Assembly (NCBI RefSeq): GCF_964204865.1
Contig: NC_135259.1
Span: 4,464,001 to 4,528,000, forward strand
Direction of reading: 5' to 3'
DNA length: 64,000 nt
From: Styela clava
Lineage: Eukaryota
The notes under the pieces are model-generated. The model searched no databases. It saw only the letters and a program-made list of their open reading frames with translations, and had not been told where the DNA came from. This document shows, piece after piece, positions 1-41,900 of the stretch. Position numbers and translations under genes: made by a program. Position 1 is the first letter of the stretch, and every line of letters starts with the position of its first letter.

Positions 1-3000
1 GGTTTGTCAATTCCACTATTTTGTGACAACATGGAGGAAAATATTGCACGACTATTCTGTAATTTGTGAGAAGATGTGGATTCATGGTGTTCTAGAGCGC
101 TTGATCCTGGAGAGAAGTTCAAATTCTTTTTAGCGACTGGCATAACCCTTTCCTTGCTAATAGGCAATGAGGGACAATTTCTGTTTTGCCCTTGATCTGA
201 AAAATCTAGCCTTTGTTTCGTTTTGGAACGTCGTTGTTTTGCCAAAGAAACTTCTTCCAATTCAGAAGATCTTGCTTTCTTTTCTGGACTGGAACTCGTG
301 AAATCTTCAGTATTTGAAGATCTGTTTTGTGTAAATCTTTCTGTTAATGTCAATTTTCGTTTTGAACTTTCTTTTTTAGCACTCGATTTCCTCTTTATCA
401 GCATAGGATGGTTGATTCTTGAAGCTGTTGGAGAGGAAAACAGCCAGCTGTAAAGCAAAAAACAACAATTTCAAGAAAAATACACCGGTATAAAAACAAA
501 GGTTATATGTGTAGCCTATATATGTATATTAAAACGGTGATATCTGTCATGACTCCCTTGATGACCTATGAAAAATTTATTTTTTACGTCAATATCAAAA
601 TGCTACTACAAACTAGGTTTTACTAAATTATTTGAACTTATTATAAACATCAAAAAAACCCAAATATTCTCACACTAATATCCCTACTAAATCTCTCAAT
701 ATGTTAATATACAAATACAATAATAATAATAAATCTAACCTCGAGTCTTGATTCTGTACTGCTTCTTTTGGTTGCTTAACGACAAATATTTCACTGTTTG
801 TTGGCGATGAACTTTGGTCAAGCTCGAACAGTGGATGTACAGAAGAAACTTCCCGGTTCTGAAAATCAAGCACATAGCAAATTCAACTATGTACCAGAGA
901 TGGGCCACAACTACAGAATTTAGTATTATGAAAATTTTTCATACTAAATGTAAGTTTTCATCGAATTTAAACAAATCAAGGTTATATTTATATAAATAAA
1001 ATAAACATAAAAAAGAGAAATAATCATCGAAATATATTCAAACCAGATTTTAATCAGACTCAGGCATTTCCGAAGCAAATCAAAACGTTTAATAATTCTA
1101 TATTAATTACACTTCACATAAAAATTCTTGATTTTAGGAGTTCATTTATTTGAAAATTTATATAAAAAATTCATTAAATTTTCCAAAACTGTAAACATGT
1201 TGAAATACCATTTGAAGAATGGTTTTGATATCTGAGACCCATTGCTCACCACTGCAACTCTGCAGTATCGCTTAAATCAGATAGGCTTATTCAATATATA
1301 GAATATATCATTTTTATATTGTTATATTGTTCAAAAACAAGCGAGACCTCGCAATAGCCTACCTGCGAATTGGGTGAGAACTTTAAACCTTGATAGAAAT
1401 TTCCAAAAATAGCTGCTAAGTGAAAAAAACATTTGATACCCTCCAACCCTCATAAAATAAGAATTCAATACAACCAAGTACCAGTTTGTTCAAAGACTAC
1501 TAACTAGAATGTCAAATGAAACTAGATGACTGACTTGCTTTTCCATCACGAAATGATCAAATTATTTTACCTGTAGAATATTGATTGAACTTTTTTGCTC
1601 CTTATCAGATCCCAAGTCTTTATTGAATGAGAGTCTAAAACAATACAATAAATACTTTAGATAGGTGGCACGGGATGGAGGACCACACATGACATTTTGA
1701 TTTTATGAAAACCTCATCAAAATTCAATATAATTTTATGGGAACAATCACCCCGTAAAAGGGACTCTATAGTTTAGCTAGATCTATGAGCAGGTGGCCTA
1801 GTGGTCATTAAAGCATTAGACTAGACTAGTAATTCTCAAACTTTTCAAGCCAATAGAATAACAATAAATATCCAGTTATTGATCTATCCAGAGCAGGTAG
1901 GGAATAGTAATTAACTGTATAATATGAAGTCAACACAGTGATCTTTGCATAAAAATATATCTCTCAACATCAAATCAATATCATACCTTCTCCTCAGCAA
2001 TGAATTTTGTGAATGTTTTGGAGTTAGAGCCGGTGAAGCCACATATGACATCTTTGATCCCGATTTTGTTGCACTTATCACTGTCAAAAAATAGAAAGTA
2101 TTATTGAGCTTCTACTGTATTCTGTATTTCTATGAGTCTTGATACATATTGTATTCTCGTAAATGAGTAACATTTAAATTTATCATATTATAAAAAAATG
2201 CTCCCCTCAGAATGCTGCTATATTTATGAAATAGGTTAAAAAATGTCAGTTTAGTAAAACTATAACTATCAGTTGTGGTTATGCAAGACTCACTACGTGG
2301 TATATGCCTTTGTGCAGGTGGACTGTGTATAATACAAGGATGTCTTAGTAAGAATAAAGAAAAATTTTTGTCTGACATCATATAGAAAAACATCTAAGTT
2401 AGTGTGCAACAAGACTTTTGAATCACATACGATAAAAACTAGATTGTTAATTTTAATAAACCAGATTGGAACCAATTGCTATAAACCAGAGCTAATCAAT
2501 TTCTGGAAAGACCGGACCCAAATAATTTTGAAGTTTAAAGTAATTTACTGTATTGAAAAGAAAAAAACTTACTTTTGGTGTACTTCTGTATAATGTTGTT
2601 AGATGAAACCACCTAAAAGAAAAAAAAATATTCAAAAACGATTCCTAATGTTGACGAGTATATACATATCATATCATAATTGCTAAATTAAAAAAAATCA
2701 CCCTTCGTTCTGGCGAGGAGTGATAATCTGTGGAAACTCCTTCATGAATGTATGGTGACCCATAGGATTTAGCCACACTCTTACGTGATGACACAATCTT
2801 TTCAAACAAGTGTGAGGAATCTTCAGGTGACATGAGTGTCGCAATTGAATCTGAAAAAAAAATGAAAATATGTCAAAATTTTATGAGCACCAGTTTCTAA
2901 ACAGAGCAGTTGTTAATTAATGCAGCAGTTCCCAAAGGGTGCACCGCGGCGCAGTAGTGCGCAGAATTATGTTATACAGAACTAAAATATGATTGAATAT

Positions 3001-6000
3001 CTTATATATTGTATTTATTAGAAAAGTTTTATTGTTTCCTATTTTAAATGTTGTGTATATGAATCAATAAATTCATTTTACCTTTCCATGTCGATTACTT
3101 TCTGTTACGTAACAATAAATATAGACACTACTTGCTGCAATTTTGTGAGTTGCAGTTTATTTATCTGACGAACGGAGTTTAGTGAAAATGACAAACTTAC
3201 ACAAAATGACAAACTTACAAACTTTAAAAGGCGTGACGTACACAATAACACAACGGTCACAAAATTGAGTTTTATTTAAACGCAGCATTTTTTTTCGTGT
3301 AAATGCGCTGTGAGTTTTTCCCCTGATAATTTGCTGTGCACAAACAAAAAGTTGACGTATGTGTTTATTCAACATTACCAGATTCCTTTAGTTTATTTCG
3401 CTGGCTAGTTTTTTTTATTTGATGGTGTGATGATCTCCTTTTTTCACTATGCTGTGTCGACTGATCAACAAACATCTTGCTTGTATCTGTGGAAGAAAAT
3501 GGTATACTTGATAAAAAGCAAAAACCATGAACATGTACAGCGGGTCACACCTTCACTCAACATAGGCTTTCTAGTGGTTGCATGTGCAAAAGTTTAGGTT
3601 ATTGATATTATGACATGCGATGTTCGCTTCGCACAAGCTGTAAAGGCATTGTAACGTCAGAGGCATAGATAATAAATTACCCGCATGTACCAGATTACAC
3701 TTAATGGGCCGCAAACCCTTCAAAACTGTCACTTCTCCACGGGGTGCACAATACGTCCATGTGCGTCGCATTTGGCCCGCCGGCCGCAGGTTGCACACCC
3801 CTGAATTATGTTATTGATTATGGCGCTTCAATAATCAAAAACTTTTTTTTTCTTGCTATTACCTAACTGGTTTTTAGTTACAAGATCATTCATTACCAGA
3901 TTTATTTTTATTCTTTTCCTGGCTTGATTCGTTCTTCTGTGATTGTGATGTTGCTCTCATTTCCACAACGTCGTCAGAATACGAGTGTTGTATTGACTGA
4001 TCCACTAACGTTCTTCTAATGACTGGAGGGGAATGTTGAACAGACTGGTCAACAAAGGTCTTGCTTGTTGCTGCGGAAAAAAGACCGAATAATTGTTTAA
4101 TAGTATCCCTATTGAGAAGCAGCTCAATAAAAAACAATGATTTGTCTTATTCTATGGCCGCAATCCACAATGCATTAATTATTTTACTTCTATTTTTTGG
4201 CTTTCTATTTATACTAAGGCAAATGAAATAACTGATGAAAACAAAATTGTTTTTTATTGAAAAGCAGGGGCAGTGTTGAAGTCTCTGAAAGGGGGTCGCA
4301 GATTATGAAAGTCCACTTGTTCAGACTTGCGCATAAATAAATTTACTCTGCCAGATATTAAACTACACATGAATTATGATGTTTTTTAGGAGAGACAGGG
4401 CTTTCCAAACCTTTAAGCTCGCAATTCCTGCCAATACATGGAAATTTTCTGCGGTCCCCGCTTCTCATTCAAAATTTTTCTATGTCACTCCTTGGGTCTT
4501 GCGATTGAAGTCGGCATTGTTATGCAAGCGCCGCTTCTCTGATCATATGTATGGTCTCGTAATCGTGAGACTTATGTTTTGCGCTAGTTTTCATAATTGT
4601 GTTACGAATCAAAAGTTTAAAAAAGTACAATACATATAGTACTTCGTGCGACCTCTTCGTGACCCCTAAAATACATTGAGCCCCCCTGCCCCAACTGGGT
4701 CGCGACATCCAGTTTGGGAAACCCGGGTTTGGAAAACAAAATAGAAGACGTTATAGCTTACATGATCCAGGATCCAAATTTTGTATTTGAGTCGCTTCCG
4801 CCACTGTAACGCCATCGTCAATGCAGTCTCCACTGTCACTACTGTTATCAAATGCAGGAGGGTCCGGAATGCTAACAGATTTTACTGAAACCTGCGTGAA
4901 ATTGAGGATTAGGAACTATAGGTATCTGAATAGAGCAGTTTAAAATATATGCTCAAAAAAAATTTGTGACCAGAGATTAATTCCTCATTGTCACCATCAC
5001 CCACAGTTGGCACATTACATTGGGTAAGATATGTCAACTCAGATATTACTGCTATGTTATTGTTGATATTGGAGTGGTAGAGCGTAGAGGTATTTTGAAT
5101 TTTTCGTTCAAAGTCAGAATTTCAGACTTGATAGTGATAATTTTAGTGAAAATTCCACATGGAAGATCGAGGAGCATTTAAAACAAACAATTAAAAAAGT
5201 ATTGCATACGCCAACATTTTTAATTCACTTCAACCCGAAGTATTTTTTGATGATTTTTTTGCAAAAATTTATGCATTGTTCTACTTTAGGTTTCGTCCAA
5301 AGATTCTTGATCTGATAGCTTTGATTTACTATAACGTTCCCAAATGAAATATTATTCTTGAGACCATGATGCAACACAAAACTTATCATCCCCAAGGATG
5401 ATTTATATTATAGATGAATAGATTGTGCCTCAAAGATACATATTTAGCACTAAAATCATGAACTCACCGGTACAGATGCCCTTGAAGTATTCAAGTTCAC
5501 AGATGAATCTGTAAAGGAATAATAAATTAAAGGAACAGATGTACTGTGAAAAATTAGCATCACGCAGATGAAATAAGTGAGAAAGTAATATCTTTCAACT
5601 TCTAAGGCTGACAAAGGCAAACTACGGCCCGTGGGCCAAATCCGGCCCATTGGGTAATTCAATCTGGCACGCCTGATGCTGCCACAACCAAACTTAAAAC
5701 AAATTTTGATGTTTGAACTAAAAAAATAGCTCAAGTATTTGTTGATATTGCGATTAAATTTAGTTTTTGCACAAGGCTAATTGTTTTCCCTTTTTGCTTG
5801 TGTAACACTGAGAATATTGTTCATAAAATGTAACTTTATATCAAATTATATGTCACACTTACATGGCCCGCTAGTCAAGGAGGGGAAAATTTTTGGCCCT
5901 TGATCCAAAAACCTTGCCCACCCCTGTTCTAAAGCAACGTATATATAGCAGGGGTGGGAAACATACGACCTGCGACGAGATTTCGACCGGCACGATGACT

Positions 6001-7498
6001 GTTCATCAGTACATTATAATATTTCATTATTACACTTTTAGTACAATATGATAAATTCATTTGTGTTTTTTGGTCTCTATTTTTTGTAAAGTTTACACTT
6101 TACTTTAAACATGATTTATAACTTTCTTTCTTGCATTAGGGAATGAATATGTGATTAAGATATTGTATACTACTCATGTTATAATCCGGCCCACCAAGGA
6201 CTTCATTTTCCCACATCCAGCCCGCCGACTAGAGAAGTTGCCCACCCGTGGTATACAGAGTATTACTGTTGCCTAATTAACTCGTCCACTTCTCATGTTT
6301 TTAAACTACTAGATTCATACATAAATGAGGATATGTTGTAATATGTCAGTAATTTTACCAAACTTTTGCTGTAATATGCACTGGAAGAAAACATTTCAAT
6401 AAATTCATGTTTTTTTATTTGTATACAACATACCTGATGAATCGAGTGACTTGAAAAGTGATGATGTATCATGCATACCACCAATTTTAATAATCTTTCC
6501 TGTACGCCTGAAAGAAGAATAAGCTATAAATTTTTACTTGAAATGAAAAAAATTTCAAATATTAAAAGATAGTTCACTTTTGTTTACTTAGGTATTGTCC
6601 AAAAATAAATAGCATATAAATATACACCTGTTTCAGAATAAATTTTATTTTTCTGTATTACTTCATTTGTAAATTTCATTAGTTACGTGATGGTATCATC
6701 ACTTATAACAAGTTATAAATACTAATTGACAAAATTTGTGCAATCTTTCCCCAGTCAAATACATTACTTATTAATTCAACATACTTCCCAATATTACTTT
6801 TCTGATAAGCTCGAGATCGTTGTGACTTAATTCTTCCTCTTTTTTTGTTCAACTAAAAAATAAAATATCGAAATTATATAAATATTAAGAAACAATACAC
6901 AGACAATTTACTACATAGCACAAATTATACTCTTGTGGTTGCAAATGATGCACATATGGTTTGTTTAAAAAAAAGGTCAAGGTTCAAACTCTAATGTAGT
7001 CTGTAAACTATATAAAATTCTTTTCAATATAGTATAGTGTGCACATAACAGAGTTGCAGAGTTTTACATTATTTTGCCAGCACCTGAATCCAAGTACATT
7101 TTTCAAACTCTCAGGATTGACAAGTTCATATTTTTATAAGTGAGATCAAAATCAAGATTTTTTAGCATAAAAACTGAAAAGAGACTACCGGTATAATATA
7201 CGGTAATATCAGATATTTGAAACATAGTCTAATAAAAATATGCACTCCTCAATTTTTTTTTTTTTTTCAGAATTTGGAGCTCAAGTCAAATTTTCTTTAA
7301 ATTGGACCATTTAAAAAGCGTGGAGAACTTATAAAACGAACTCATTATAAACCGAATCTAGGTACTTGAACTATTTTCTCCTATGAACAAAAAGTTTTAC
7401 AATGAAAACAAAAGCATATCGTTTTCACTAAATTTGGTTTAAAAGTATTTCATTTGGAATACACATACCTCCTGAACATATTTTACTATGTCTTCCAT
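1..7498 (-). CDS. Spliced gene, 5' part (about 476 aa in window, continues past left edge); S/P-rich protein, candidate centromere protein C (CENP-C/Mif2)-like
   Basis: Phase-consistent GT-AG coding exons on minus: 7469-7498, 6785-6852, 6434-6507, 5468-5508, 4762-4891, 3897-4070, 2702-2850, 2573-2612, 1987-2080, 1571-1634, 740-858, 1-447; an optional in-frame exon is possible at 1209-1259. Translation starts MEDIVKYVQELNKKRGRIKSQRSRAYQKSNIGKRTGKIIKIGGMHDTSSLFKS and stays open to position 1. The gene itself is well supported; the CENP-C identity rests only on recalled motif similarity (about 0.45). Confidence 0.8.
2923..3803. mobile_element. Degraded non-autonomous hAT-type element(s) in intron
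   Basis: Left end CAGCAGTTCCCAAA and right end GGCCCGCGGCCGCAGGTTGCACACCCCTG are typical hAT/Charlie ends. No clean TSD; may be a composite. Confidence 0.5.
4396..4726. mobile_element. Degraded hAT (Charlie-like) MITE
   Basis: Ends CAGGGCTTTCCAAAC ... GGGTCGCGACATCCAGTTTGGGAAACCCGG form an imperfect terminal inverted repeat. Confidence 0.5.
5608..5926 (+). mobile_element. hAT MITE family A, copy 1 (about 310 bp)
   Basis: GGCAAACTACGGCCCGTGGGCCAAATCCGGCCC ... TTGCCCACCCCTG; flanks TTCTAAGG/TTCTAAAG give an 8-bp TSD with 1 mismatch. Homologous copies at 39466, 44724 and 52610. Confidence 0.85.
5949..6250. mobile_element. hAT MITE (related ends, different internal sequence)
   Basis: CAGGGGTGGGAAAC ... 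GTTGCCCACCCGTG; flanks ATATATAG/GTATACAG look like a degenerate 8-bp TSD. Confidence 0.7.
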
Positions 7499-9376
7499 CG
7501 TTTTTGGAATGTTATGAAAGAACAAAAATTCAATGCACTTTCAGAATGGAAAATTTCTTTTCCTCTGGCTTCTTTTGCAAAACACAGAATATAACACAGT
7601 TGAAATCAATTTCTAAACTACTTATAGCGATGAAGTAAAACGTGAAAAACCATAACCTAGACAAAAAAAATTTATACAAAATTAACAATCCAAGAACATC
7701 GAAGACATTTACAAAAGTTACCAACTACAAAAATCAAAACAGGCAGTGGTGGAAAAAAAATCAAAATCGAACAGAACACAAACATAGAACCATCTTTCAT
7801 TTAACCCAGATCATTCGGAAGGTGTATACAGAATCCAAAATAGTATTATACATCTGAATGGCTTACCAAAGATAAATTAAGCACGAAATGTAGATGAATG
7901 GAGCATTTTTCAACAGTTCAAAGAATACATTGGATAATGTATTTAGGTGTATAACACAGCAGCGTAAATAAAAAGTATATGTTTTATATTATCACACCAT
8001 GAACCCACGCTAACCAGATACTTAATGCTTTATATTTATAAGAGGCTACCAGATATGTGGACTATCCGCACAATTATTAAGAATTGTACACAAGCCATAT
8101 TGGAAGAGTATAATGTGGGCCAATTTTTAAGTCTAGCAACCAACAACTACATACAATTTAAGCACATGTAATTCAAAAATGAAGAAAGATTCAGTCAATA
8201 AATCTGATTAGTTATGCAATTACAACCAAATTCATGATTTTGTTGTTACCGCAACTAATTGGCCTACTAGAATGGCCATATCTGAAAATGCGAATATATT
8301 GCAAAACAATAGATTTGTGGATGAAATATATATTATTGGTTCAGAAAAAAGTTCGATACATTCACTAAAATTGACTTTTAAAATATGAAAAATTTCGTAC
8401 AGGCCGTTTTAATTGGATTTCTACAGCAATCAATTTTGAATAAGCATTAGACAGTCTGAACATCAGATGCCAATTGCACAAAATTGTATATTTTCATTAA
8501 AAAATTATCAAAATTCGACCAGAATTTACTATATTCAATATACCTAATTTCAAATATATTCGAACATTTAATTCATTTTGGACTAACCAGTATACCAGTA
8601 CAAAAATATACTGGTACATGTTTTAAAAGTAATCTGAACATTGACATTTGGAACATATAACACAGATATAATTCTAGAATTATCTGGACATACAGCACCA
8701 GTCGAACTTGATTTATAAACAGCATCAAAACATAATAAAAATCAGGTTGCCATTAGCAATATGGAATAAACTTCAGGAGTTTCATCATTAGTACTGCAAG
8801 TAAATAGAACATTCAAAAAATAAAGCCAGTTTACTACTGGTGGTAATTATCACAAAATAAGCCAACTTTCAAAATTGGAACATTTAGGTTTTGAAGAAAA
8901 CAATTTCAGAATCTTGGAGAGGGGTCTGACCAACTTCTGAGCAATAGCTATCCATAAATAGATTATTGCAAAATTCCCAAAACCAGGTCATGTTAGATAA
9001 AAAAAAAAGTCACTGGTGACTACAGCAAGATTTAGTATTCTAATGAAATGTTTCTGAGCCACGCAAGTAGTGGATTTAACAATAATCATTCATCTTCACG
9101 TGATACCGGTAAATTTGGCCAAATCACAACAAGATGAGTATTTTTGTATTGCATTTATAGCAATCTATACTTCTATAGCCTTATATAGGATATGAATGAA
9201 CTGCATTTTTGAAGCAAACATTCACATATCCTGAAACGAATGAAACAAGCTTCAATGCATGAGTTTTCCAGACTTTCAGTCTAATGCTCTTTCAACAACT
9301 AATCAAAATATTTGTCACCAATCATACAATAAAAAGTCATATTTTGTAAAAACATGAAAACTTTAAAATGGTCCCA

Positions 9377-12300
9377 TTATCCATGCATTGTATCATCTTC
9401 CACAAATTCTCTTGCTTCCTCTTTAGAAATTGTTCGAACGAGGGAAACTTTATTTCTATAGATAACTCCATAAAACTTGTCAGCAGCTTCCAGCAACTCT
9501 GGTCTAAAAGTAGTTGTGATAAATTGTGCGGACTGGCATAAATCCTTGATCATATTTGCGACTGAAGATCTGTGGGCGGGGTCAAGCGCTTGATCAATCT
9601 CATCAAACAAATAGAAAGGTGCGGGATCGCACTTTTGTATAGCAAAAATCAGTGCAAGAGCGACCAATGATTTCTGCCCACCAGACAGCTGTTGCATTTC
9701 TCGTGTCTCTGCTGCCTTACCAGAGAATGATACTTTGATTCCGACGCCGACAAACTGGTCCACGATCGAGGCAGATGGTTCACTTTCTGCGTCACCATCG
9801 GGTTGCGATTGATTTTCACCTTTCTTCATGATCAAAGTTGCTTTTCCACCAGGAACTAATTTCACAAATACGTCACTAAAATTCTTTGAAACTTGTCTAA
9901 AAGTGAATTGAATCGCTTCGTACTTTTGATGTTCCATATGCTCCATGAGATTCAAAATTGCTTGTTTTCCTCTGTCAACTTCCTCCTTCCTCTTTAGCAG
10001 TTTCTCCTTCTGTTCTGAAAAAGAGACAAATTGGTCGAGAGCTTTTTTATTTACGTGAGAATATTTTTTCAACTCTTGATTGCACTCATCCAGACGCTTC
10101 ATTAACTGACGTACACTGAGCCCTTGATATTTGTCAAATGAATCCTGCGGCAAAGAGCCGAGATCACGAATTTTTCTCATGCTCTCGTCTTTCTTTTTAA
10201 TCAGCATACTTTGCTTGTTCGTTACTTTCTCCAGCTCTCTTGCATCATCGGTGATTTTTTCTCTCATTTCACGTTCCTTTGATCTCAAATCTTCAACTTT
10301 TGCTGACAGATTTCCTTGATCTCGTTCTAGCTTCATGACTTCAGTTTCCAGTTCTTTCAATCTCGCATCAGTTGAACGAAGTTTTTCTTCTGTAATGGTT
10401 CGGTCTTTATCACTCTGTTCCAGTTTTTGTTTTCTGACATCAACGGAAAGTTCTTGCATTTCCTGCATAAGTTGTTCCTTTCGTCTAACAAGATTATCTT
10501 CCAGTAAGTTCTGTAAGCTAGTTTTCTTCCCTTCCAATCTCACTCTTTGTCCCACTGCATCTTTGTGTTGAACAGTCAACTGTTTGATAAGATCATTTAA
10601 GCGATCAACTTCCATTTGATCTTCCGCGGATAGCTGTGATAATAAATTGGTCCCAACTTCCTCTTTAAGAGATTTTTCAGTCGACTTGAGGGCTTCGCAA
10701 TGAGTTTGAAGAGCAGCTAATGATCTTTCTTTTGGTTCTCGAGCACGTTGAGCTGCTTGCTGTTGTTCTTTCAGCATCCTTACATCTGCTTTCAATTTTT
10801 CGAAAACATCTTTATTTTTTTTATTTTTTGTTTCTAATTTCTGCAAATCATCCATTACTTTTGTGCTTTCGGCTTCAAGTTTTTGTTGTTCTCTCTTGTT
10901 ACTAGCAATCTCTTCTTGCTTTTCTTCCAATTTTGCATGAAGATCTTGTTTGGCAGTGTACAGATCAAGACGAGATTTTCTGTTATCAACATAACCACCA
11001 GTGAGAGCTCCACGACGACTCACTTGGTCGCCTTCCAGTGTTACACAATCCAATTGGTGAACTCGAGCGAGCTGAGTTGAAACTTCCATGCTGCGACAAA
11101 TTAAGGTTTTACCAAATACATATTTAATAGCGACTCCATAATCATCAGAAAATTGTAATTTACTTATCATAGGTATGGCATCCGATGTTTGCGGGTATTC
11201 AACGTCTCTAACTTCTAGTTTATTGAGTGGTAAAAATGTGACTTCACCAGGTAGTTTTTGTTGATTCATTTCATTGAGATATTTTGTACCGATTCGATCA
11301 GTGCTCACGACGTGATTGAATAATCTTCCTCCAGCAGTGACTTCAACACAAGTGAAGAAATTTTTTGAACATCTAAAGTTTTCCATTAACATACCTTTAT
11401 ACCCATCAACTAAATCTTGCTGACCTCTTTCAGAGAAGGTTTTCATTACTCTTTTGATGCTTTCGAGGCCATGAACAGTGGCCTTTCCTATAATTGAATT
11501 TAGAGTATGTTCTTTAGCTTTTATCTCAGAGGAAATCGAATCCAGTTCTTGCAGTATCTTTGATTCATCTCTCCATAATCTTTGTCTCTGTCCCTGTAAA
11601 TCATCCTTCAAACGCTTTAAATTTGTCGATTCTCTCGTGAGAGCATCCATCCTTGTTTTATGTTCTTGAATATTCAAATTTTTTTCTGAAATAGATTTCT
11701 GCAAAGTTTCTTGATTTTTTTGACTATTTTGGATTTCTTCTTGTAGGTTTGTGATCTGCGTTTGTTTGTCACGAACGCCACGTTCAAGCGTTCTCAATTC
11801 ATTTTTAATCCACGTATCTCTTTCTTCACGAGATCGAAATTGATTTCCACGACCTTGTTTTGCAAAAAGTTCTTTTCTTCTTTGCTCAGCAACTTTCAAT
11901 TCTTTTTCAGTTTCTCTTTCCAGTTTTTCCATTTCTTCATATTGCGGAGTGACTGCATTTAGTTCATCTGTCTTTTTCAGGATTCTTTCATTCATTCCAC
12001 CCAATTCAGCTTGCGCTTGCTCCAGGGAACGTTGATCGGATTCCATTTCTTCACGAAGATCAGTACAAGCAAGTTCCAGCTGTGCTTTTTTCTTGATCAA
12101 TTCTTGTCTATCAGAAGTTGCTAGATCTTTTTCTTCTGAAAGTTGATCGATACGAGTATTGACATTGGACAGTTGCTTTTGAGCGTCTTTAGTTTGCCTC
12201 TGTGCTTCTTCTTGCTGTTGTCTCAAATGCCTTGTTTGAAGTGAATTGTTTTCCCGTTTGTTTGAAAGAGTATCAAGTTTATTTCTGGTGTCTGTCAATT

Positions 12301-12991
12301 CTTGATTATAAATTGTGTATTCGAGAGCTCTCCTTGTTTTATCCCACTGTTGATATTGAGCCAATTCTTCTTTTTCTTCATTTAAAGTTGAAAGTCTATC
12401 TTCTATCATAGCAAGAACCTTTTCAATATCAGCAAGTCTTGTCTCAGATTCTTTCATCAAAGTTTCGCTCTCACTTTTTCTTTCATCGTATACTCTAGTG
12501 CCTGCAACTTCACGAAGAAGCCGAAGTCTGTAAGAATCCGGAGCTGTAGCCATTTGGTTAATCTTGCCCTGTTTTACAATATAGTATGGATTACTTCTCG
12601 AAAATCCAGCAGATTCAAGCAAATTCATGACATCGTTTTTTGTCACCATTTTTTTGTCCAAAAAATACTGATCTTTTTTGGAACCAATGACTCGTCGAAG
12701 TGTGACTTCATCTTTTTCAATAGGTAAGCGATTGTCTGAATTGTCAAACACAATTTCAACACATGCAGATATGACTCTAGCACCTGTTCCCTCGTGAAGT
12801 AATTGCTGCCTTTGCTCTGCTCTCAAATTACTGTATTCGTCACTGAAAACAAATTGGATAGCAGAGAAAAAGTTACTTTTCCCAGATCCATTTCTTCCGA
12901 CAATGATGTTGTGCTTAGGACTAAATGGTTCGATTTCAGTTGACTCACGATAGCTTCTAAATCCTTGTATGCTGACACTTTTGATATGCAT
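9377..12991 (-). CDS. SMC3: Structural maintenance of chromosomes protein 3 (cohesin subunit), 1204 aa, intronless CDS
   Basis: Single ORF with Walker A GRNGSGKS, the SMC3 acetylation-site motif GSKKDQYF, coiled coils, hinge (VTFLPLN, GDQVSRRGALTGG), signature LSGGQ and Walker B/D-loop FYLFDEIDQALD. Confidence 0.98.
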   Translation of the reverse strand: MHIKSVSIQGFRSYRESTEIEPFSPKHNIIVGRNGSGKSNFFSAIQFVFSDEYSNLRAEQRQQLLHEGTGARVISACVEIVFDNSDNRLPIEKDEVTLRRVIGSKKDQYFLDKKMVTKNDVMNLLESAGFSRSNPYYIVKQGKINQMATAPDSYRLRLLREVAGTRVYDERKSESETLMKESETRLADIEKVLAMIEDRLSTLNEEKEELAQYQQWDKTRRALEYTIYNQELTDTRNKLDTLSNKRENNSLQTRHLRQQQEEAQRQTKDAQKQLSNVNTRIDQLSEEKDLATSDRQELIKKKAQLELACTDLREEMESDQRSLEQAQAELGGMNERILKKTDELNAVTPQYEEMEKLERETEKELKVAEQRRKELFAKQGRGNQFRSREERDTWIKNELRTLERGVRDKQTQITNLQEEIQNSQKNQETLQKSISEKNLNIQEHKTRMDALTRESTNLKRLKDDLQGQRQRLWRDESKILQELDSISSEIKAKEHTLNSIIGKATVHGLESIKRVMKTFSERGQQDLVDGYKGMLMENFRCSKNFFTCVEVTAGGRLFNHVVSTDRIGTKYLNEMNQQKLPGEVTFLPLNKLEVRDVEYPQTSDAIPMISKLQFSDDYGVAIKYVFGKTLICRSMEVSTQLARVHQLDCVTLEGDQVSRRGALTGGYVDNRKSRLDLYTAKQDLHAKLEEKQEEIASNKREQQKLEAESTKVMDDLQKLETKNKKNKDVFEKLKADVRMLKEQQQAAQRAREPKERSLAALQTHCEALKSTEKSLKEEVGTNLLSQLSAEDQMEVDRLNDLIKQLTVQHKDAVGQRVRLEGKKTSLQNLLEDNLVRRKEQLMQEMQELSVDVRKQKLEQSDKDRTITEEKLRSTDARLKELETEVMKLERDQGNLSAKVEDLRSKEREMREKITDDARELEKVTNKQSMLIKKKDESMRKIRDLGSLPQDSFDKYQGLSVRQLMKRLDECNQELKKYSHVNKKALDQFVSFSEQKEKLLKRKEEVDRGKQAILNLMEHMEHQKYEAIQFTFRQVSKNFSDVFVKLVPGGKATLIMKKGENQSQPDGDAESEPSASIVDQFVGVGIKVSFSGKAAETREMQQLSGGQKSLVALALIFAIQKCDPAPFYLFDEIDQALDPAHRSSVANMIKDLCQSAQFITTTFRPELLEAADKFYGVIYRNKVSLVRTISKEEAREFVEDDTMHG

Positions 12992-13801
12992 ATTTGAACT
13001 GTTGTATCAATTCTTCATTTCGAAAAAGGTAAATAATACTTCTAATGTATACCCAAATCATGTCCAGTATGGAGCATTATACAGAAAGTAGTCCATGAAC
13101 CGAGTTATATTACAATATTATTCATATTGAGTAAGCATGTAAAAATGGAAAAAATGCATTATTGAAAACATGTGCAAAAAGTTTCATCTTGTCAACTTTT
13201 ACTCCTATGTCAATATATTCAATTATTACTTTATTTATTCAATAATTACTGTAAAAAAATAGCAGAATAAACCAGCTTTTTAACTTGACAGATATAAAAA
13301 TAATAAACCCTACAAAATTATTAAAAAATGTATTTTAAAATGAAACATAAAAAAATGAAACAATTTAATATAACCTTGTCTAGAAATTTTAAAGTTTTGA
13401 AATAAAAAGAACAACAATTTTTATATTACTAACATTAAAAATCAGTGTTTACGGAAATTAATAAAAAGCACTGAAAGAATCTGGCACCACTGCCGATTCG
13501 TAACATCGTGCCATGTTTGTTGCGATTATAATATAAATCAATTCGATTCAATTCTACAATTGAAAGTTCGTTTCCTGACTGCAGGACTGTTTTAGCTAGA
13601 AACTCTCGAATTCTAGAGTAAATTTATTTCGAATGATTTCACTATTTATTTAGCAATAACTTATCCATTCCGTACAGCAAAGTTCTATGATTTCAAGGAT
13701 ATCGCCTATATTGAAAGACATTGATTATAACAGTAGGAGCAAACCCCTCATTTACGAGACAGTCTGTAGAGACAGTCAATTAAATATTTACTGGGGCATT
13801 C

Positions 13802-14007
13802 CAAGCATGGCACGATCTGATGCATCTGCCTTCGTGTCGGGGCAGACACTCTTGTTTCAGAGACAAATGAAGTGTTTGTTTTCATTGCACACTTTCCAAA
13901 TTCCAAGAATGTCCCGTCATTTGGTTCAATAAAACAAACACTCCATGTGTCTTACAAACGAGGGGTGTCTGGCACAACGGCAGATGCGTCATATGGTGCC
14001 ATGCTTG
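13802..14007. mobile_element. Palindromic MITE (about 206 bp)
   Basis: CAAGCATGGCACGATCTGATGCATCTGCC... and ...GGCAGATGCGTCATATGGTGCCATGCTTG are imperfect inverted arms of about 85 bp. No TSD seen. Confidence 0.75.
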
Positions 14008-15554: not shown

Positions 15555-16281
15555 AAAAAATTACCATAGCATTTGGGAGTTTCAAAGTTTATCATGAATG
15601 GCATTTTTGCAGAAAAAAAATTTTCAACATTAGTTTTAATTTAACAAAGAGAAACATTTTACAAAAATTAAATTTGTCACCAAAAACAATAATAGGCTAT
15701 TCATTTCAGCATTTGGTAGCACAGTCAGACAGTAGCAATCACGGTACCGGTAGCAGGGTAGTGTATGCGTGTAAGTCGGTTCTGCAATCAGTCACTGGAC
15801 CTCCATCTCTGAAACTCCTCAACGTCAAGAAGCTGAAAATTCATGCACCTATCACTGTGACGTATCTGTATCATCATGCAGTTTTGAAAATTTTGCGCTC
15901 GACGGTAAAAACTATTGTCCAAGCTAACTCCATTTCAAATTAGTGTCTTTCAAATGTCTGATTGTCTGCAAATAATAGGCAAAACAAAAACAAATCAGAA
16001 ACGAAAGCGAAGGAAAAGCGACTGAACCCGAGTTGCCGCCATTTTACGTTTTGCGTCATAATATGACCCCTGACCCTCTTCACGCAACAATGGATTTGTT
16101 ATTTCAAAATTTCACGTCGCTTTGGTTGTGGGGTTGTTGGTATGTATATAAATTTATAAATAGATGTGTAGACTAAAATAAATAGATGACTATCCTTTCA
16201 AAAATGTCTCTTTACATCTTTTATTCAAATGTTAATAATATTACTCTACTGTTATAATTGTAACATTTATGGATATATAAC

Positions 16282-16839: not shown

Positions 16840-18800
16840 ACAAAACCCGATATTCCACTCAGTGACCATTTCACGGTGACAAATACAGCTATGTCTACGC
16901 CCGTTTATACAAGAAAAAACGCTCAGCCTCAACAGTTGCTGCTACTTGCTAGTAGCGTCATAACGATCTGTATTGTTGTGTGCACGCTTGGATAATCTCG
17001 AGAGCTCAGACGAATCTCCTCCAAACATTCGTCATTTATGTCGGAGCTCAAAGAAGCTCACCACAGTCTCACTTCATTCTGGAGGTTATCCAGAAAATAC
17101 AGACGCTCAATCTCATCCACCTGGACTGGTTTATTCGGGTGAAAAATTGATATCAAGGAAAAAGTGAAGGATTGTCAATGGAGCGTTCCCGAATAGAGCA
17201 GCTGAAGCCGTCGGCATATGGAAGGTATACGGAACGTTGGGAATACTGGGAGGCTGAATCAGCACAGACGTTGTCGCGTTGAACTTGTACTTCAACTACT
17301 CTGGGTATTGTAAAATCTTTCAAGTCAGCTATTTCACAAGTTTCTTTGTAAATATTCGATGCAATGTCCGATTCATTGCGTTCTTAAGTGAGAACGCTCT
17401 AAACGGAGGATGTGAGGCTCTTTACTGACGCACACTGACTCCGACCGCGTGGAGTATGCGCGCGAATGGTTCTATCAGAATGGTTCTATATGATAGAAAA
17501 CAGTTCGCTACCTTTCACATATCTTAAAACAATGCTTAGTTGTTCTGTCCCTTACGGACACAAACGTTCTCCATAATTATATCTTGCATTATCATATTGC
17601 TTGCTACCCCGAGAATCTCCTTTTGTATCAAATCTCCACCCCCGGTGTCGATACGAAATTGAAGATGCTTTGCAAAATTTCCATTTCCCAAATGTCCACG
17701 CGAAGGTATGTTACTCGAAGCATAGAACATAACAGTCTTGACAATGAAAGCCATTATCATAGGCGTAGCCAGCAGGGGGCGAGAGGGGCCATGGCCCCTC
17801 CCAAATTTCCAAGATTACCAAGATCTGATAATGCCCAGAGTAGTCGAGATACAAGTTTATCACGACAACATCTGTGCTGATTCAGCGTCCCAGTCCCAAC
17901 GTTCCGTATATCTTCCATACGTCGACGGCTTGAGCTGCTCTATCCGGGAACGCTTCATTGGCAACCCCTCGTTTTTTGCTTCACTATCAATTCTTCCTCC
18001 GAACGAACCAGTCCGGGTGGATGAGATTGAGCTTTTGTATTTGTTGGATAACCTCCTGAATGAAGTGAGACTATGGAGATCTTCTTTGAGCTCCGACGTC
18101 AACGACGAAGGAGCTTCTTCTGAGCAGTCGAGATTATTCAAACGTGCACACGGCAATATAGATCGGTATGACGCTACCAGCAACAACCGTTAATGCTGAG
18201 CGTTCTTTTTCCTGTAGGAAACGGGTCAAGACATGGCTGCGCCCATCAATGACGTCCAATCCCCTTTTCGATTTGTGTGTCCTTTATTGTCATCGTGAAA
18301 GGATCACTAAGGAGAAGATCAATCGGGTTGTGGCGAGCATAGTTGGCGGAAAGCGAAGGACGGGTTTTTACTGGTTCAGATTGCCTCATAAATATTTGTT
18401 GTATCAAAGAAAAAGTTGTTCGGGAAAAAATATTGTATTTACAAAAAGCCAGCTAAGTTGTTGAATGTTATTTTCCTTAACGATCGAATGTGGTCTTTTT
18501 CTGCTTAAAGAAGTGATGTCTCAGACCCAATATCATTGCTTGAAAATACAATATATATTTGGCCCCCACCAAAATTTTGGGCTGGCGTACTTTTGGCCAT
18601 TATTATTCTGTTTTCTTTTGTTTGAGTAGCATATTGGGCCTTTAAATTCACACACATAATTTGACCAATTTTAATGCTTTTGACGATGTATGACTCAGGA
18701 CTTACCCTGCGTTGCGCTGGAAACGAAACAACAACTATCGCCATGTAGTTCACATTTTTGTCACGCATTTTAGCCATTTTCCGAAAAGAATGATTTACTC
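16840..18800 (-). mobile_element. Decayed hAT transposase remnant (PRKRIR/ZMYM1-like), interrupted by a sister copy
   Basis: Removing 17758-18595 and one TSD joins ...ENRIIMA to FIVKTVMFYASSNIPSRGHLGNGNF..LQFRID, a DUF4371-like hAT segment. 16840-17320 is the reverse complement of 17820-18370. Boundaries approximate. Confidence 0.75.
17758..18595 (+). mobile_element. Internally deleted hAT element retaining the C-terminal dimerisation domain
   Basis: Left TIR CATAGGCGTAGCCAG, degenerate right TIR CTGGCGTACTTTTG, perfect TSD GCCATTAT. Encodes TLPATTVNAERSFSCRKRVKTWLR...HRE (hATC motif). Confidence 0.9.
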
Positions 18801-35900: not shown

Positions 35901-38900
35901 CGACGATACGATACACTCACAGTCGTGAGAAGAGGGAGTTTGTTACGCCGTCGTCATTACGTCCCACGACGTGTTTACGTCGCGGCTACTTTCCATTTCA
36001 AAAACAAAATAAGCTTCATATTTCGCTGATGACACCATCTTGGAATTGTTTTGTGTCGTGGGCTCATTGACCTTCTAACCTTTTCACAAATCGGGATATA
36101 TAATCCTCTACTAAATTTTTGTGTCTTTCTCTTTCGATTATTTGGTTATTGATGGGAAGCTCGGTGAATTTTCTACTGAGCTCGATTGTGTATTTACAGG
36201 TATAAAGATAATATGAAAATTAAAACTGGCGAAGACGAAAGACTGTCAATGAAAGAAAGAGAATGGGGATCAAGACTTCAAATCCTTGACGTTTACACAG
36301 CCGATTCCGGCGAATACAGATGTGAGGCTTCTGATGGAGAAAAGAGCGTTTTCACTACCGCAAGACTGACGGTCGCTTTCAGTAAGTTTATTTTTTTTTT
36401 ATAATGCTACTAGTTGGTTTTATTTTGCGGAAAGTGTGATTCGAATGGCGTTCATTTTTGAACAAAATTTTTCTAATTTTACCCGTTGTCTATCTCTAAT
36501 GACTCGAGACGTTTTTTATTCTGACGCTACTGGTTCTACTTTACGAAAAGTATGACTCGGAAAGATTTCATTTTTGAGCAGATTTTTCTAATTTCTGCTT
36601 TTTTGTGAAAGGTTGTCTTACTTGTCTGTTCTTAATCGTTAGGGATTTGCCGTATTTTGACGAATATTCTATGCTGTGCGTTTCGTCCAGGTTACACGCC
36701 TTGGAATAACTTTTTTTCCAACTGTAACCAACAAAAAGAATCCATTTGTCAATATGACAGTCTGTCATCCATCACTCTATAGAATCAATTATCTTAACTT
36801 CATTTCCCACCAAACCATTAGAAAAAACGCCCATTTGTTATAAAGCTTTGTTTGTACTTGTTAAAAACACTAAGGCACGAGCTCAAAAGGTATCTGGTAG
36901 TCTAAACCGACCAAGAAAATTCGATCAAAATTTTCTTCAAAATTTCATTGTTATTTTTCTGCGATGTATATTTAATCGGAGGGCGGGGAATGGGAGCGAG
37001 TATTTCTTTTGTCAAAACTCTGTTTAAAGATATCATGCCGTTTAGATTTGGCCCTTAGGTATCCATGCTTTAAAAATTAAAAAGTATCTATCTTGTCTAC
37101 ACGGCCGTGTATACGTCATCGCGTGTTTGTACTAACTCTATTGTTGTGGTCAACTGGTAAAATGGCTCTTAGTAAAATCGCATTGTGGAAGTAATAACAC
37201 GGGATTTGTGGTTAGGCCGAAGTTTCTTCAAGAGAATATACACTTTCGTGTATGTGTTGTTCATTCTACTTAACTGCGTTCATACGTTGTGATTTGTGAC
37301 CGAGTCTAACTAATCTCCTACGATAACATTAGCCTGAGAAACACGAAAATGTACGAGTCGTTTTTTTGTAGTAAAGTGTTCTCAGGTGTTTGTAAACGTC
37401 ATCCGTATGGGAGGCGTCATGTCCCTTGACCGGACTACTTGAACTTCCCATATAGGTTAAATTATCACTATTCATTTCACTAACACATGCCAGGGATACA
37501 ATCATGATAAAATTTTCTCTTATCCATTGCATCGTAGTGAAATATTTTTCATTCGTATATTTGGGTTAGATTTTGAATTACTCATTAATAACTGATTTTT
37601 TTTTACTATATTCGAATTGTATTTACCAGACAACGGCGAATCTCCCAACCCGCTCTTTTAATTTATCATCAGATGGGGTAATGTATATATTACCAGTTCA
37701 CATTAATCATGTGCTATATTAATTTCAAAAGTACGACTCCAAACAAAACTTCCCATTAATATAAATTCAGTTTGTCTCTTTCAATTTCGCGTCTCGTATT
37801 TTATCTAATATCAAAAAAAAAATAGGTAATTTTACGCGTCTTCGAGTGTAACCAAAAAAAGAATTGTAAATATATTAACCGAATTATGTTCCACCATGTT
37901 TGGTCCAAACAAAGCTTGCAATATATCACTTCTTTTTACTAGTACTTTTTTTCTTCCGCAGCCACATAACTGCATATGCAGCCTAATTAATTGACGTTGT
38001 GAATTTAAAAAATAATTCACATAAATAAGATGAAAAAAATATATAATTTTATCAGTTAATTCACTAGTTGTTAATATTTATCGACAGGACTTCTCATCCC
38101 CACGGAGAGGTAATATTATGTAGTCGTTCTCGCTTATATATTATTCATGTAGTGAACCGATAATTTATTCTCGGAATCCACAGTTCCTGCATGTCAAGAC
38201 TATTAAACCCCTTTTGGGGCGAAAAGAGGTGCTTATTTCGTGGCAAACTAAAATTTGTGGTTGAAAGTAACCTATTTAGTGGGTTTTTGATCGATATTTA
38301 TTGCATTGTTTCTCCGTCTGTTGTTGTGTTCCCTCCATTGAGTACATTAATTATACAGGAAATTTCACTGTAGTCGTTATTTTGCAATTGCCGCTAATAG
38401 AAACGTTCCAGACTTTGGTAGTTGTGGGTAGACTTTCAAATCCAAATAACAGAGTAACCGAAATATAAATAAAGACCTCATTAAATTCCTAATAACTTGA
38501 ACTGTTTGGGTATGATTGTACCACAAAGTTTCAGTAATCTAGTACGCTTTGCACAAAAGTTATGTTTTCTCTAGAATATGTTCCAAATATATCATAAAAA
38601 TATGTTGGAATATGTACGGATGTGACTGCGAAATTTGTATTCCTAAATGTCAAGCGTCATTAGCTTGAAGTACACCCCCCTCGTTAAATTCTATAAGATG
38701 CCAGATTAACTTTTGGTGACGCCAATCAAACGTCACAAAGTATTTGTCTGATGCCACGTCAGTGACAGATTTCGCTGAAAGCTTGTCGAAGTCGATTCAT
38801 TCGAATTCATCCATCGAATTTCCTATTGTATCGATCAAAAGTTTGAACTTGGCGATTGACGATAATACCTTTACTAGAATATTACTTCTACTCGTTTGTT

Positions 38901-41900
38901 GAGTATGCAATATATTTTGAAAGACAGATTTATAATACTCCAGGGACATTATACGGGCAGCACGAAACTGTTTTTTCATTTTTTTTTAATTCCCTTTTTT
39001 TTGGCGGTAATATTTTATCTTAAGCTAGTTTTGATATTGTTAGATAAAATTCATCTGAATTAATGATTTATCCAAGCATAGTAATAAAGTATTCCGAACA
39101 TAATATGAAAGATAATAAGGAACAAGCAATAATGATTGTTCTGAATAATGCCATGTTTAACTGAAAGCATGTTTCGACAGACATTGTTTTGTTAGGTTCA
39201 CGTATATCAATTAAACGATGTATGGGACTTAAACGCGGACATTTTCTAAATGATTCCTCACTACATGACTAAAATGTTACATGTAATTAATTTAGAATAT
39301 ATCAAAGTACTAACATATTCAATTATTTTTACCCTCTTAACTTCACATTATAATGATTTCATATTATTTCCCATGTATGATAAACATTTTCGGAAATATG
39401 AATATGCACTAGATCCAAGATTCTCCAAGAAGCTCTAAAATTAAAAAAATTCCGAGAGTCATAATATGACATGGGCAAACTACGGCCCGTGGGTCAAATT
39501 CGCCCGTTGGCTAATTCAATCTGGCCAGTTGGATACTGTCACAATCAAATTAAAACCAAATTTTGATGTTTCAGCTAAAGATAGCACAAGGAGTTTGTGA
39601 AGATTGCGATTGAATTTAATTTTGTCACGGGGCTTATTGTTTTCCACTTTTGCTTTTGTAACACTGTAAATATTGTACCTATAATGTAACGTTTTACGTC
39701 ACACTTACATGGCCCGCCAATCTAGGTGGGCACAATTATTTGGCTCCTGTTCCAAAAACCTTGCCCATCCCTGGACTCCTGCTAAGTAATCGATTTATCT
39801 CCCATTTCGCTTACATTCTGGTACAACTAACTGCCAGTCACCGGGTATCAGTGTTTCCACCGAAATCGTGGTTCCGCTAATTTTCACCAGTCATCATTTC
39901 GATCAAATCTAAAAGATAGTCTTATCACAGAGCTATTAAAATTCATGTGTGTTTGTGTATATCTGTCTTGACTAGCTTTATTTCAAAGCGAGGCCGCTTT
40001 ATCAAAAGAAACCGACCTTGGTTTAATTATCCGCCGCAATGTAATTTCAATTTATTTTGATATTCTTACGTTTACATTATCCATTGCTTTAGTTATAAGA
40101 ATGATTAATAAAGGTGTCTGCTGGCATAATTTTATCAACTGGTCCAAGCGTGTCTCATTACGATTATCGGTGTTTTGGAAAGATACCGTGGCGACCTCTA
40201 CATGCTCCTGACAGTAATGTCACATTGACGGACATATTTTTATTGTTTATTTTATAGATGTATACTGATATTGGCTTACGCGGTTATGCGCTTCTTGTTA
40301 TGTCAAAATTCGATTTTTTTCCCTATTTAATCCGCAACAGTATTTTTCATACTCACGGTGGATTTTACCTTGCCAACCTAACAGCAAATAGCTTGCTTGA
40401 TTTTGCATATGTCTGTACAGTTGGGCAATGAGCTAAAAAAATTTAAGAGGATAAAATAAAACTATCCATCAAAAGCCATAATTGCAAAATTTAAAGCGAT
40501 GTGATTTCTTTGTGCATTATGAACGAAATGTCCACCACAGACCGTCAGAGAGAATTGTATTATTAATCGAATTCAGTCTAAGTTTCCGCTTCAAACTCAC
40601 ATAATTTAACGCTTCTGGCAATCGCATTTTGGCGTACCAAAATAAGTGCAACTGTAGACGGTAAAAATTAGTTAGAATCGATATGCAATCTCTAATAATG
40701 ACTAGCTTTTAAGTAAAAACGGTGTATGAAAACAGTATCTGTCAAAGAACGAACTTAAATGTAGCCTGAGGCAAACGCAAGCGACCGCAGTATGATATTT
40801 CAGGATGGTCGATGTAACACGGTTGCCTCACCGATGCTTTTAAAGAGATTAAAAAGCCAAGAAAACGTGGTGGTTTGAGACACCACGGAATTTTTTATAA
40901 AGGAAATCACTATGCCACATTAGGATTGCACCATCTGTATATCTTGTTTGAAATATACATAAAGTCGCATGAAATAAAAAAAATGCGCCCAAGTACCGAC
41001 AGATTTTGCGCATAATTTAATAATCATTCAGGATAAACCTGACGTTTTGACAGCAATTTACCTACAACGTTGAAATGTGGCTGTCGGTTTGATGGCGCTC
41101 CTAAAGTATGCGTACCAAGATGGCGGACACCGGAACCGTAGTATGTGTACCAGGTTAGGGCTAGGCCATAATTCAGGTACAAATACTACGGGAGTCACTT
41201 GGCTAGTCTCCGAACTCGTAACAGAACTAAAAAAAGGAAAATTGGAATACAATTATGGCTTAACCCTAATCTGGTACACATACCACGTCCCGGTGTCCGC
41301 CATCTTGGTACGCATACTTCAGGGAGTACCAATTTAAAAATACCATTCGATTCAAGTCAATATGGAGCATATTCTAGGTGGCCATTTGGTATTCTGTAGA
41401 TATTCGCCTTTGCAAGGTAAATCAAAGGTTCAGACGTTCAGGTTTATTACACACTCTGAAATTTTGACCTTATCGCGGCTTTGCGTTGGAGCGTTTTCGT
41501 AATCCTAGTATCATCCAGTCAAGGCAAACTTCGGCGCCAAAATTGCACGGGGCCCGGAGAAATCGTAATCCCCACTTTATACTTTAGTCTCTTTCGAACT
41601 GCTTTACGAGCAAGATAATTGCGATTAACCCTAATTCTTCAGTTCAAAGTTCAGAATAGACTACCATGTATGATTAAATGTGATCCGTGGTACTTGTTCT
41701 GTATGCGAGACTGTTATTTGCAACACAGATAGCGCTGAAATATGAAAACAAAATATTATAAGATAGTTAGGGACGAAAAGGTTAATGGCTCAATTTTTCG
41801 CCTCCTTAAACACTAATTGACGGTTATGTTTCTGGTCATGTTGTGGCCAAAACAGAAAAAATATCATCTTTAAAGAAAACCTAACAAAATGTACTTGTCA

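What the first reader, a model, noticed from the sequence alone, without database searches (positions are those of the whole stretch)
7469..13470. Possible chromosome-segregation operon or shared transcription unit: SMC3 followed by the CENP-C-like gene
Seen: both genes are on the minus strand. The ATG-bearing exon of the downstream gene begins at a splice-acceptor-like site (TTTAG at 7613), 1.76 kb after the SMC3 stop. In that AT-rich spacer I found no AATAAA on the coding strand (only two ATTAAA, about 8410 and 8570), no transposon remnants and no CpG-rich promoter patch, although TEs crowd both sides. A donor-like G|GTAAGC lies at 7866. Established: ascidians have operons resolved by SL trans-splicing, enriched in single-exon genes. 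Inference: cohesin and a kinetochore protein are made from one precursor, either as an operon or because SMC3 sits in a 5'-UTR intron of the other gene.
Basis: partly seen in the sequence, partly recalled or inferred. Interest (0 to 1): 0.7.

Follow-up and report, generated by a model that had tools for sequence, protein, structure and literature searches.

The report
Abutting SMC3 and CENP-C sea-squirt operon
In a sea squirt, the messenger RNA of the cohesin gene SMC3 runs through the whole supposed gap and gets its poly(A) tail a few bases before the messenger of the kinetochore gene CENP-C begins, so the two are likely cut from one transcript by leader splicing, a known sea-squirt arrangement; more unusual is that SMC3 carries two different leaders.

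Summary
The 1.76-kb 'spacer' is the 3' UTR of intronless SMC3. RNA contigs of three studies cover it, and poly(A) follows the G of an acceptor-like AG at 7657 in 2 of 4 runs. CENP-C contigs (Pfam CENP-C_C above cut-off) start at 7650-7652 in 3 of 4 runs. This matches Ciona operons without intercistronic DNA. The proposed acceptor (7613) and donor (7866) are unused, and nesting in an intron is not supported. Trans-splicing is shown in this animal: SMC3 carries a spliced leader at 13041. No leader and no bridging contig were seen at the CENP-C 5' end, so the operon is likely (0.75), not proven. In Ciona and Clavelina the two genes lie on different contigs, so this is no conserved segregation operon. 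Extra: SMC3's acceptor takes two different leaders (24 and 18 nt), each encoded in its own gene arrays; Ciona and Oikopleura are reported to have one. The scan noted leader-gene arrays in this genome and Ciona-type operons in other genomes before.

The parts
13043..13924 (-). Transcribed region upstream of SMC3's leader acceptor (likely outron); start site not located
   Evidence: RNA contigs 13040-13924 (X1), 13284-13928 (X2), 13273-13924 (X6); X3 runs unspliced across 13043; contigs end where a repeat begins
13042..13043 (-). AG used as trans-splice acceptor of SMC3; receives a 24-nt or an 18-nt leader
   Evidence: Loose ends at 13043 in X2 (22 letters) and X1 (20 letters); both are genome-encoded before a GT donor
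9377..12991 (-). SMC3 coding sequence, single exon, 1204 aa, single copy
7657..9376 (-). SMC3 3' UTR, 1720 nt, no AATAAA or ATTAAA in the last 100 nt
   Evidence: Tiled RNA contigs; X3 (8821-13320+) and X6 (9027-12955) cross the stop codon
7657..7781 (-). Acceptor module inside the 3' UTR: branch-point-like TTAAT (7685-7681), 8 T (7670-7663), TAG; also a TATAAA at 7676-7671
   Evidence: Sequence; kept in dispersed CENP-C 5' paralogues, TATAAA not kept
7657..7658 (-). AG whose G carries SMC3's poly(A); predicted trans-splice acceptor of CENP-C
   Evidence: 8 and 13 untemplated A in X2 and X6, other runs end at 7658 and 7661; no genomic A-run follows; leader here not seen
7469..7656 (-). CENP-C exon 1 (predicted start 7656; ATG 7498; 11-codon upstream ORF 7653-7618)
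   Evidence: Contig ends 7650/7651/7652 and joint 7469-6852 in 4 of 4 runs
1..6852 (-). CENP-C exons 2 onward; the 1515-aa gene continues 11 kb beyond the window to G000:C13:4452960
   Evidence: 11 introns shown as joints in 3 RNA runs, absent in the DNA run; exon map; Pfam CENP-C_C 35 bits, cut-off 29; PDB CENP-C hits
7613..7617 (-).
7861..7867 (-).
8502..8588 (.). Small dispersed-repeat relic in the 3' UTR
   Evidence: 8 hits elsewhere at 78-88%

Best explanation
SMC3's mRNA ends in poly(A) at the AG at 7657 and CENP-C's mRNA begins within 5-7 bases of it, so the two genes likely form a Ciona-type operon with no DNA between them, likely split by spliced-leader trans-splicing at that AG. Shown: SMC3 is intronless, trans-spliced at 13041, has a 1.7-kb 3' UTR and is polyadenylated on the G of the AG; CENP-C is spliced as a separate mRNA starting at about 7652. 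Inferred: one promoter upstream of 13924 drives a precursor through both genes; the spliceosome uses the branch-point-like TTAAT, T-run and AG at the end of the SMC3 3' UTR to join a leader to 7656; that cut frees the 3' end that is polyadenylated (the mechanism proposed for Ciona in PMC1488885, itself not proven). The pairing is probably a lineage-specific union of two proliferation genes rather than a conserved functional unit.
For:: poly(A) at 7657 in X2 and X6 (two studies), ends at 7658 and 7661 in X3 and X1; CENP-C ends at 7650-7652 in three studies; depth sums leave no contig over 7653-7656; leaders on SMC3 in X1 and X2. DNA run X10 passes 7399-13916 in one contig, so the breaks are RNA features. 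PMC1488885 section 14: in Ciona operons the G of the acceptor AG is the poly(A) residue; section 17: 16 of 18 lack AAT(T)AAA within 40 nt, as here. PMC2760879 passages: 60% of first operon genes are single-exon; 7657 ranks 5 of 69 AGs, within the range of real acceptors. CENP-C 5' paralogues keep branch-like motif, T-run and AG (86% mean identity at 7689-7670 over 6 non-redundant copies, 22-36% over most of the UTR behind the AG); three copies read GCTAAT, a canonical branch site (consensus recalled).
Against: No leader was seen on CENP-C in 0 of 4 runs although 2 of the 4 show one on SMC3; X3 and X6 end cleanly 5-6 nt short of the AG, X2 ends in unrelated letters, X1 in adapter. No bridging contig. 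A TATAAA at 7676 plus a GU-rich stretch behind 7657 could serve ordinary cleavage or a TATA promoter. The acceptor matrix is a poor guide to trans-splice sites: SMC3's proven site scores -10.5. The paralogues were found by a search centred on the module, which inflates its conservation, and they lack SMC3 upstream, so the module can exist without it. All RNA evidence is from assembled contigs, which drop true ends.
Confidence: 0.75

Rival explanations
1. Two independent, abutting genes: CENP-C has its own promoter inside the SMC3 3' UTR with a start near 7650-7656 and no leader, and SMC3 is cleaved by the ordinary machinery at a variant signal (TATAAA, 7676).
For: Leader-free CENP-C contig ends in 3 runs; TATAAA 24-26 nt before them; paralogues carry the last 125 nt without SMC3; Botryllus fuhc is a close pair whose second gene lacks a leader (PMC3691228, passages).
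Against: Poly(A) on the G of an AG followed by G is the exact Ciona operon mark; TATAAA is not kept in 6 of 6 non-redundant paralogues while branch motif and T-run are, and AG is at the same place in 5 of 6; contigs lose ends (X1 lost 7576-7660 altogether).
Confidence: 0.14
2. Hybrid: an operon in some tissues, plus an internal promoter in the long SMC3 3' UTR whose short outron is trans-spliced at the same AG.
For: Paralogues lacking SMC3 keep the acceptor module; Ciona outrons are mostly under 500 nt (PMC4691747, passages), which fits inside the 1.7-kb UTR.
Against: No start site seen; contigs cannot show one. Poly(A) at the AG still needs transcription across it from SMC3.
Confidence: 0.08
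3. SMC3 is nested in a 5'-UTR intron of CENP-C, or the donor at 7866 makes a small 5'-UTR intron.
For: A donor-like GGTAAGC exists at 7866.
Against: No canonical joint into 7612 or 7656 in 4 of 4 runs; the only other joint (7557-11719, X2) is non-canonical with a 21-letter side; no minus-strand gene found upstream by Pfam among 64 ORFs.
Confidence: 0.02

Closest known systems
Ciona intestinalis operons without intercistronic DNA (Satou et al. 2006, PMC1488885, sections 13, 14, 17 read; Satou et al. 2008, PMC2760879, passages)
   Same: Same strand, upstream poly(A) on the G of an acceptor AG, next gene directly abutting, no AAT(T)AAA within 40 nt, single-exon first gene, first gene may itself be trans-spliced.
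   Different: Different ascidian (Styela clava or very near it); this gene pair is not adjacent in Ciona or Clavelina; leader on the second gene not yet seen; two leader families instead of Ciona's one.
C. elegans SL1-type operons (as described in PMC1488885 section 17)
   Same: Little or no intercistronic DNA; poly(A) site and trans-splice site coincide.
   Different: Those carry AATAAA in the upstream gene; this one has only TATAAA.
Nematode SL1/SL2 system (PMC7986045, passages)
   Same: Two leader families in one animal.
   Different: No evidence of specialisation here: both leaders sit on the same first-gene acceptor; the leader of the downstream gene is unknown.
Oikopleura operons (PMC1488885, PMC7986045, passages)
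   Same: Tunicate, leader-resolved, no AATAAA.
   Different: 23-30 nt intercistronic DNA there, none here.

Membership tests
Ciona-type leader-resolved operon | Same-strand genes less than 100 nt apart at the mRNA level | tested here: met
   SMC3 ends 7657, CENP-C contigs begin 7650-7652
Ciona-type leader-resolved operon | Upstream poly(A) added to the G of an acceptor AG | tested here: met
   X2 and X6, 2 of 4 runs; not templated
Ciona-type leader-resolved operon | Organism performs leader trans-splicing | tested here: met
   Leaders on SMC3; gene arrays with GT donors
Ciona-type leader-resolved operon | Downstream mRNA carries the leader at the boundary | tested here: inconclusive
   0 of 4 runs show it; contigs drop true ends
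Ciona-type leader-resolved operon | Unresolved dicistronic transcript | tested here: inconclusive
   No contig over 7653-7656 in 4 runs; such molecules are rare in Ciona too
Ciona-type leader-resolved operon | No separate promoter for the downstream gene | not testable with these tools
   Needs cap-mapping or reporter assays
Ciona-type leader-resolved operon | No canonical poly(A) signal within 40 nt (typical, not obligatory) | tested here: met
   No AATAAA or ATTAAA in 7657-7756; TATAAA at 7676
CENP-C/Mif2 | C-terminal cupin domain | tested here: met
   PF11699 35 bits, cut-off 29; PDB 7x85 and 7by0; single copy
CENP-C/Mif2 | CENP-C motif before the cupin | tested here: met
   RRSKRVRMRPL aligns with the motif of 7by0_K, though that stretch alone is not significant; shared with tunicate homologues
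SMC3 (cohesin) | SMC head and hinge domains, best hits SMC3 | tested here: met
SL2-type specialised leader | One leader enriched on downstream operon genes | not testable with these tools
   No downstream leader read obtained; both leaders occur on SMC3
Conserved functional operon | Adjacency kept across related genomes | tested here: not met
   Ciona: contigs of 18.35 vs 8.45 Mb; Clavelina: 15.73 vs 28.79 Mb and 5.27 vs 14.21 Mb; indirect, from contig lengths; other styelids untested

The most novel reading that the evidence does not exclude
This chordate runs two separate spliced-leader families (a 24-nt and an 18-nt exon with their own arrays), and they divide the work as nematode SL1 and SL2 do: one is preferred at gap-free operon junctions such as SMC3/CENP-C, where the splice itself makes the upstream mRNA's end. 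That two families exist and are both used is well supported; the division of labour is the untested part.
Probability: 0.12. Interest if true: 0.78.

Novelty: new member of a known kind. Interest (0 to 1): 0.38.

Why it matters
The operon type is known and common in Ciona (about 1,300 cases), so one more pair is modest news; it extends the gap-free form to a stolidobranch-type ascidian and ties two essential segregation genes to one RNA cut, where each precursor may yield only one of the two mRNAs. The open question left in 2006, whether trans-splicing makes the upstream 3' end, is testable at this single AG. The side result matters more: two leader families used on one acceptor would end the 'single leader' picture of tunicates and allow a direct test for SL2-like specialisation outside nematodes.

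Tried and rejected
No run on record as RNA was listed; the runs used are guessed RNA, accepted because they show spliced joints absent from the DNA run. Contig depths of SMC3 and CENP-C differ in ratio between runs, but depth cannot rank genes, so it was not used. Absence of contigs over 7653-7656 shows no absence of a precursor. Relict-leader idea for SMC3's weak acceptor: likeness to the 24-nt leader is reached by 125 of 6322 AG sites, not convincing. First acceptor matrix held one wrongly placed site of 25; corrected, ranks nearly unchanged. Homologue search with the CENP-C C-terminus found only itself; the HMMER search found 9 proteins, of which 6 were looked up; 2 repetitive hits were dropped. 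Metagenome scan for SMC3 loci (61 loci, 47-67% over long matches) gave none recognisable as a close tunicate locus and was not followed. Rfam has no match for the leader arrays. Local repeats in 7400-13600 are chance level. In one search, 5 of 22 loci lacked the anchor motif and were left out; 17 were collapsed to 6; three of the five were read separately. PMC2860165 is not held. Supplements of PMC2760879 (listed) and PMC1488885 were not read; they may say whether Ciona SMC3 or CENP-C lie in other operons.

Full report
Genes and organism. The window is G000:C13:4464001-4528000 of a 377-Mb genome. The minus-strand ORF 12991-9377 is a single-exon, single-copy SMC3; its nearest named relatives are Phallusia, Clavelina and Ciona at 75-78%. 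A Styela clava protein matches the genome at 91-94%, so the animal is S. clava or very near it. The downstream gene encodes a 1515-aa protein whose exons map from 7498 to 11 kb beyond the window; it passes Pfam's CENP-C_C cut-off, hits solved CENP-C cupins, and its cupin is single-copy. Upstream lies a plus-strand receptor kinase (Ig, Fz, Kringle, tyrosine kinase); no minus-strand gene was recognised among 64 ORFs, so SMC3 is likely the first gene of its unit.

What the RNA shows. Five runs were laid, all as assembled contigs: X1, X2, X6 and the DNA run X10, then X1, X2, X6, X3, from three studies. Eleven CENP-C introns appear as joints in the three RNA runs and not in X10. The intron 6853-7468 has no cover, whereas the 'spacer' is tiled by contigs; X3 and X6 cross the SMC3 stop. 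The cover ends at 7657 (X2, X6), 7658 (X3) and 7661 (X1); X2 and X6 carry 8 and 13 untemplated A on SMC3's strand, and no genomic A-run follows. So the spacer is a 1720-nt 3' UTR and the poly(A) residue is the G of TTTTTTTTGTCTAG. CENP-C contigs begin at 7650 (X2, followed by unrelated letters), 7651 (X6) and 7652 (X3); X1 stops at 7575 in adapter. They cross 7613 unspliced, and the 3' UTR contigs cross 7866 unspliced. The per-bin depths are fully accounted for by these contigs, so none covers 7653-7656; X10 passes the region in one piece.

Trans-splicing is real here. At 13043 two SMC3 contigs continue into foreign letters. In X2 they complete a 24-nt leader identical, apart from a first G, to the 'Chordata 1' consensus of PMC3795323 (one passage; its attribution to Halocynthia and Botryllus is recalled). 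In X1 they complete an 18-nt leader that resembles Ciona's 16-nt leader (PMC7986045, passages). Both are encoded in this genome: 326 and 1022 exact copies, 0 for reversed controls; 64 copies of the first and 806 of the second are followed by a GTRAG donor, in tandem arrays of 1634 bp (C8), 490 bp (C6) and 831 bp (C4), with a similar short hairpin and a U-rich stretch behind the donor. Two dispersed copies of one element begin with one leader each (L005, L013). RNA upstream of the acceptor reaches at least 13924.

Is 7657 an acceptor? On a matrix from the gene's 25 acceptors it ranks 5 of 69 AGs in 7469-9376 (5.5 bits; real sites 1.1-15.6), and 7613 ranks 45. The matrix fails on SMC3's proven site (-10.5), so this is light evidence. 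Independent support comes from paralogues: the last 125 nt before 7657 recur on several chromosomes, mostly followed by a short ATG exon ending GAG|GT like CENP-C exon 1; two on C19 lead to exons with CENP-C motifs. Over 6 non-redundant copies identity peaks at 86% on the branch-like TTAAT and falls to 22-29% in the 60 nt after 7650; AG is at the same place in 5 of 6, TATAAA in none (alignment). The search was centred on this module, so the peak is partly by selection of hits. No SMC3 remnant was found beside the copies examined.

Comparison. Satou et al. 2006 (PMC1488885; passages and sections 13, 14, 17) describe Ciona operons in which the G of the acceptor AG is the poly(A) residue, 16 of 18 lack AAT(T)AAA nearby, and trans-splicing is proposed to make the upstream end. 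Satou et al. 2008 (PMC2760879, passages) count 1,310 operons with single-exon first genes in 60%. The locus meets every feature I could test except the leader on the second gene and a bridging transcript, both inconclusive. I read passages only of PMC11155486, PMC4691747, PMC3074122 and PMC3691228; the last gives a close gene pair without a leader, the model for the main rival.

Not a conserved segregation unit. In Ciona the SMC3 and CENP-C-like records sit on contigs of 18.35 and 8.45 Mb; in Clavelina on 15.73 and 28.79 Mb, and on 5.27 and 14.21 Mb in a second record set. This is indirect but consistent in 2 of 2 species that could be checked. Co-regulation for mitosis is neither shown nor excluded.

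Against my reading. No leader on CENP-C in 4 runs, although two of them show one on SMC3; a TATAAA at 7676 fits either a variant poly(A) signal or, loosely, a TATA box; paralogues keep the module without SMC3. Contigs lose true ends (X1 lost 7576-7660), so these blanks do not decide.

Novelty. Searches for Styela with spliced leader and trans-splicing (0 papers), the 18-nt sequence (0), Styela clava with operon (20 listed, none on this by title or abstract start), SMC3/CENP-C with operon and tunicate leaders showed neither this operon nor two leader families in a tunicate. The library lacks most subscription papers, including the botryllid and Halocynthia leader papers. Earlier notes of this scan report leader-gene arrays and leader-capped LINEs in this genome and Ciona-type operons elsewhere; they are unchecked leads and were seen after my own reading was formed.

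Verdict. Observation partly confirmed; likely a Ciona-type operon (0.75), a new member of a known kind; interest 0.38, carried mostly by the two-leader observation and the testable single-AG junction.

Noticed in passing
window 13042; G000:C8:4.34-4.61 Mb, C6:19.28 Mb onward, C4:23.30-23.48 Mb (L018, L019, L021-L026): Two spliced-leader families (24 nt and 18 nt, the latter with variants in an 831-bp unit), each in tandem arrays with GT donors, both found on SMC3's acceptor.
   Followed up: partly
L020 (G000:C1:13883500-13890800) and many pairs 5-6.5 kb apart: An LTR retroelement (gag, protease, RT, RNase H, integrase) carries the 24-nt leader sequence in both terminal repeats.
   Followed up: partly
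L091-L095, L100-L123, L126-L127 (C19, C17, C13, C4, C3, C2, C16): More than 20 dispersed copies of the CENP-C 5' region, nearly all within about 5 Mb of a contig end; a C19 copy has three CENP-C-motif-like exons and the genome has only one cupin. Possibly a family of truncated CENP-C derivatives.
   Followed up: partly
window 13040-13924: X1's upstream contig has 5 unaligned letters at 13040, right after the acceptor AG; if they are A's, the released outron (or an unrecognised upstream gene) is polyadenylated at the splice site. Letters not shown by the tool.
   Followed up: no
window about 16030-16060, minus strand: TGACGCAA and AAAATGGCGGC (YY1-like, recalled) motifs about 3 kb upstream of SMC3's acceptor; candidate promoter of the unit.
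   Followed up: no
window 36180-45852, plus strand: ROR/MuSK-like receptor tyrosine kinase (Ig, Fz, Kringle, kinase), head-to-head with SMC3.
   Followed up: partly
window 49844-51869 and 18162-18461, plus strand: hAT transposase remnants (DUF4371, dimerisation domain).
   Followed up: no
window 7653-7618: An 11-codon upstream ORF starts 3 nt after the predicted CENP-C trans-splice site; all three contig ends fall inside or just after its ATG.
   Followed up: no
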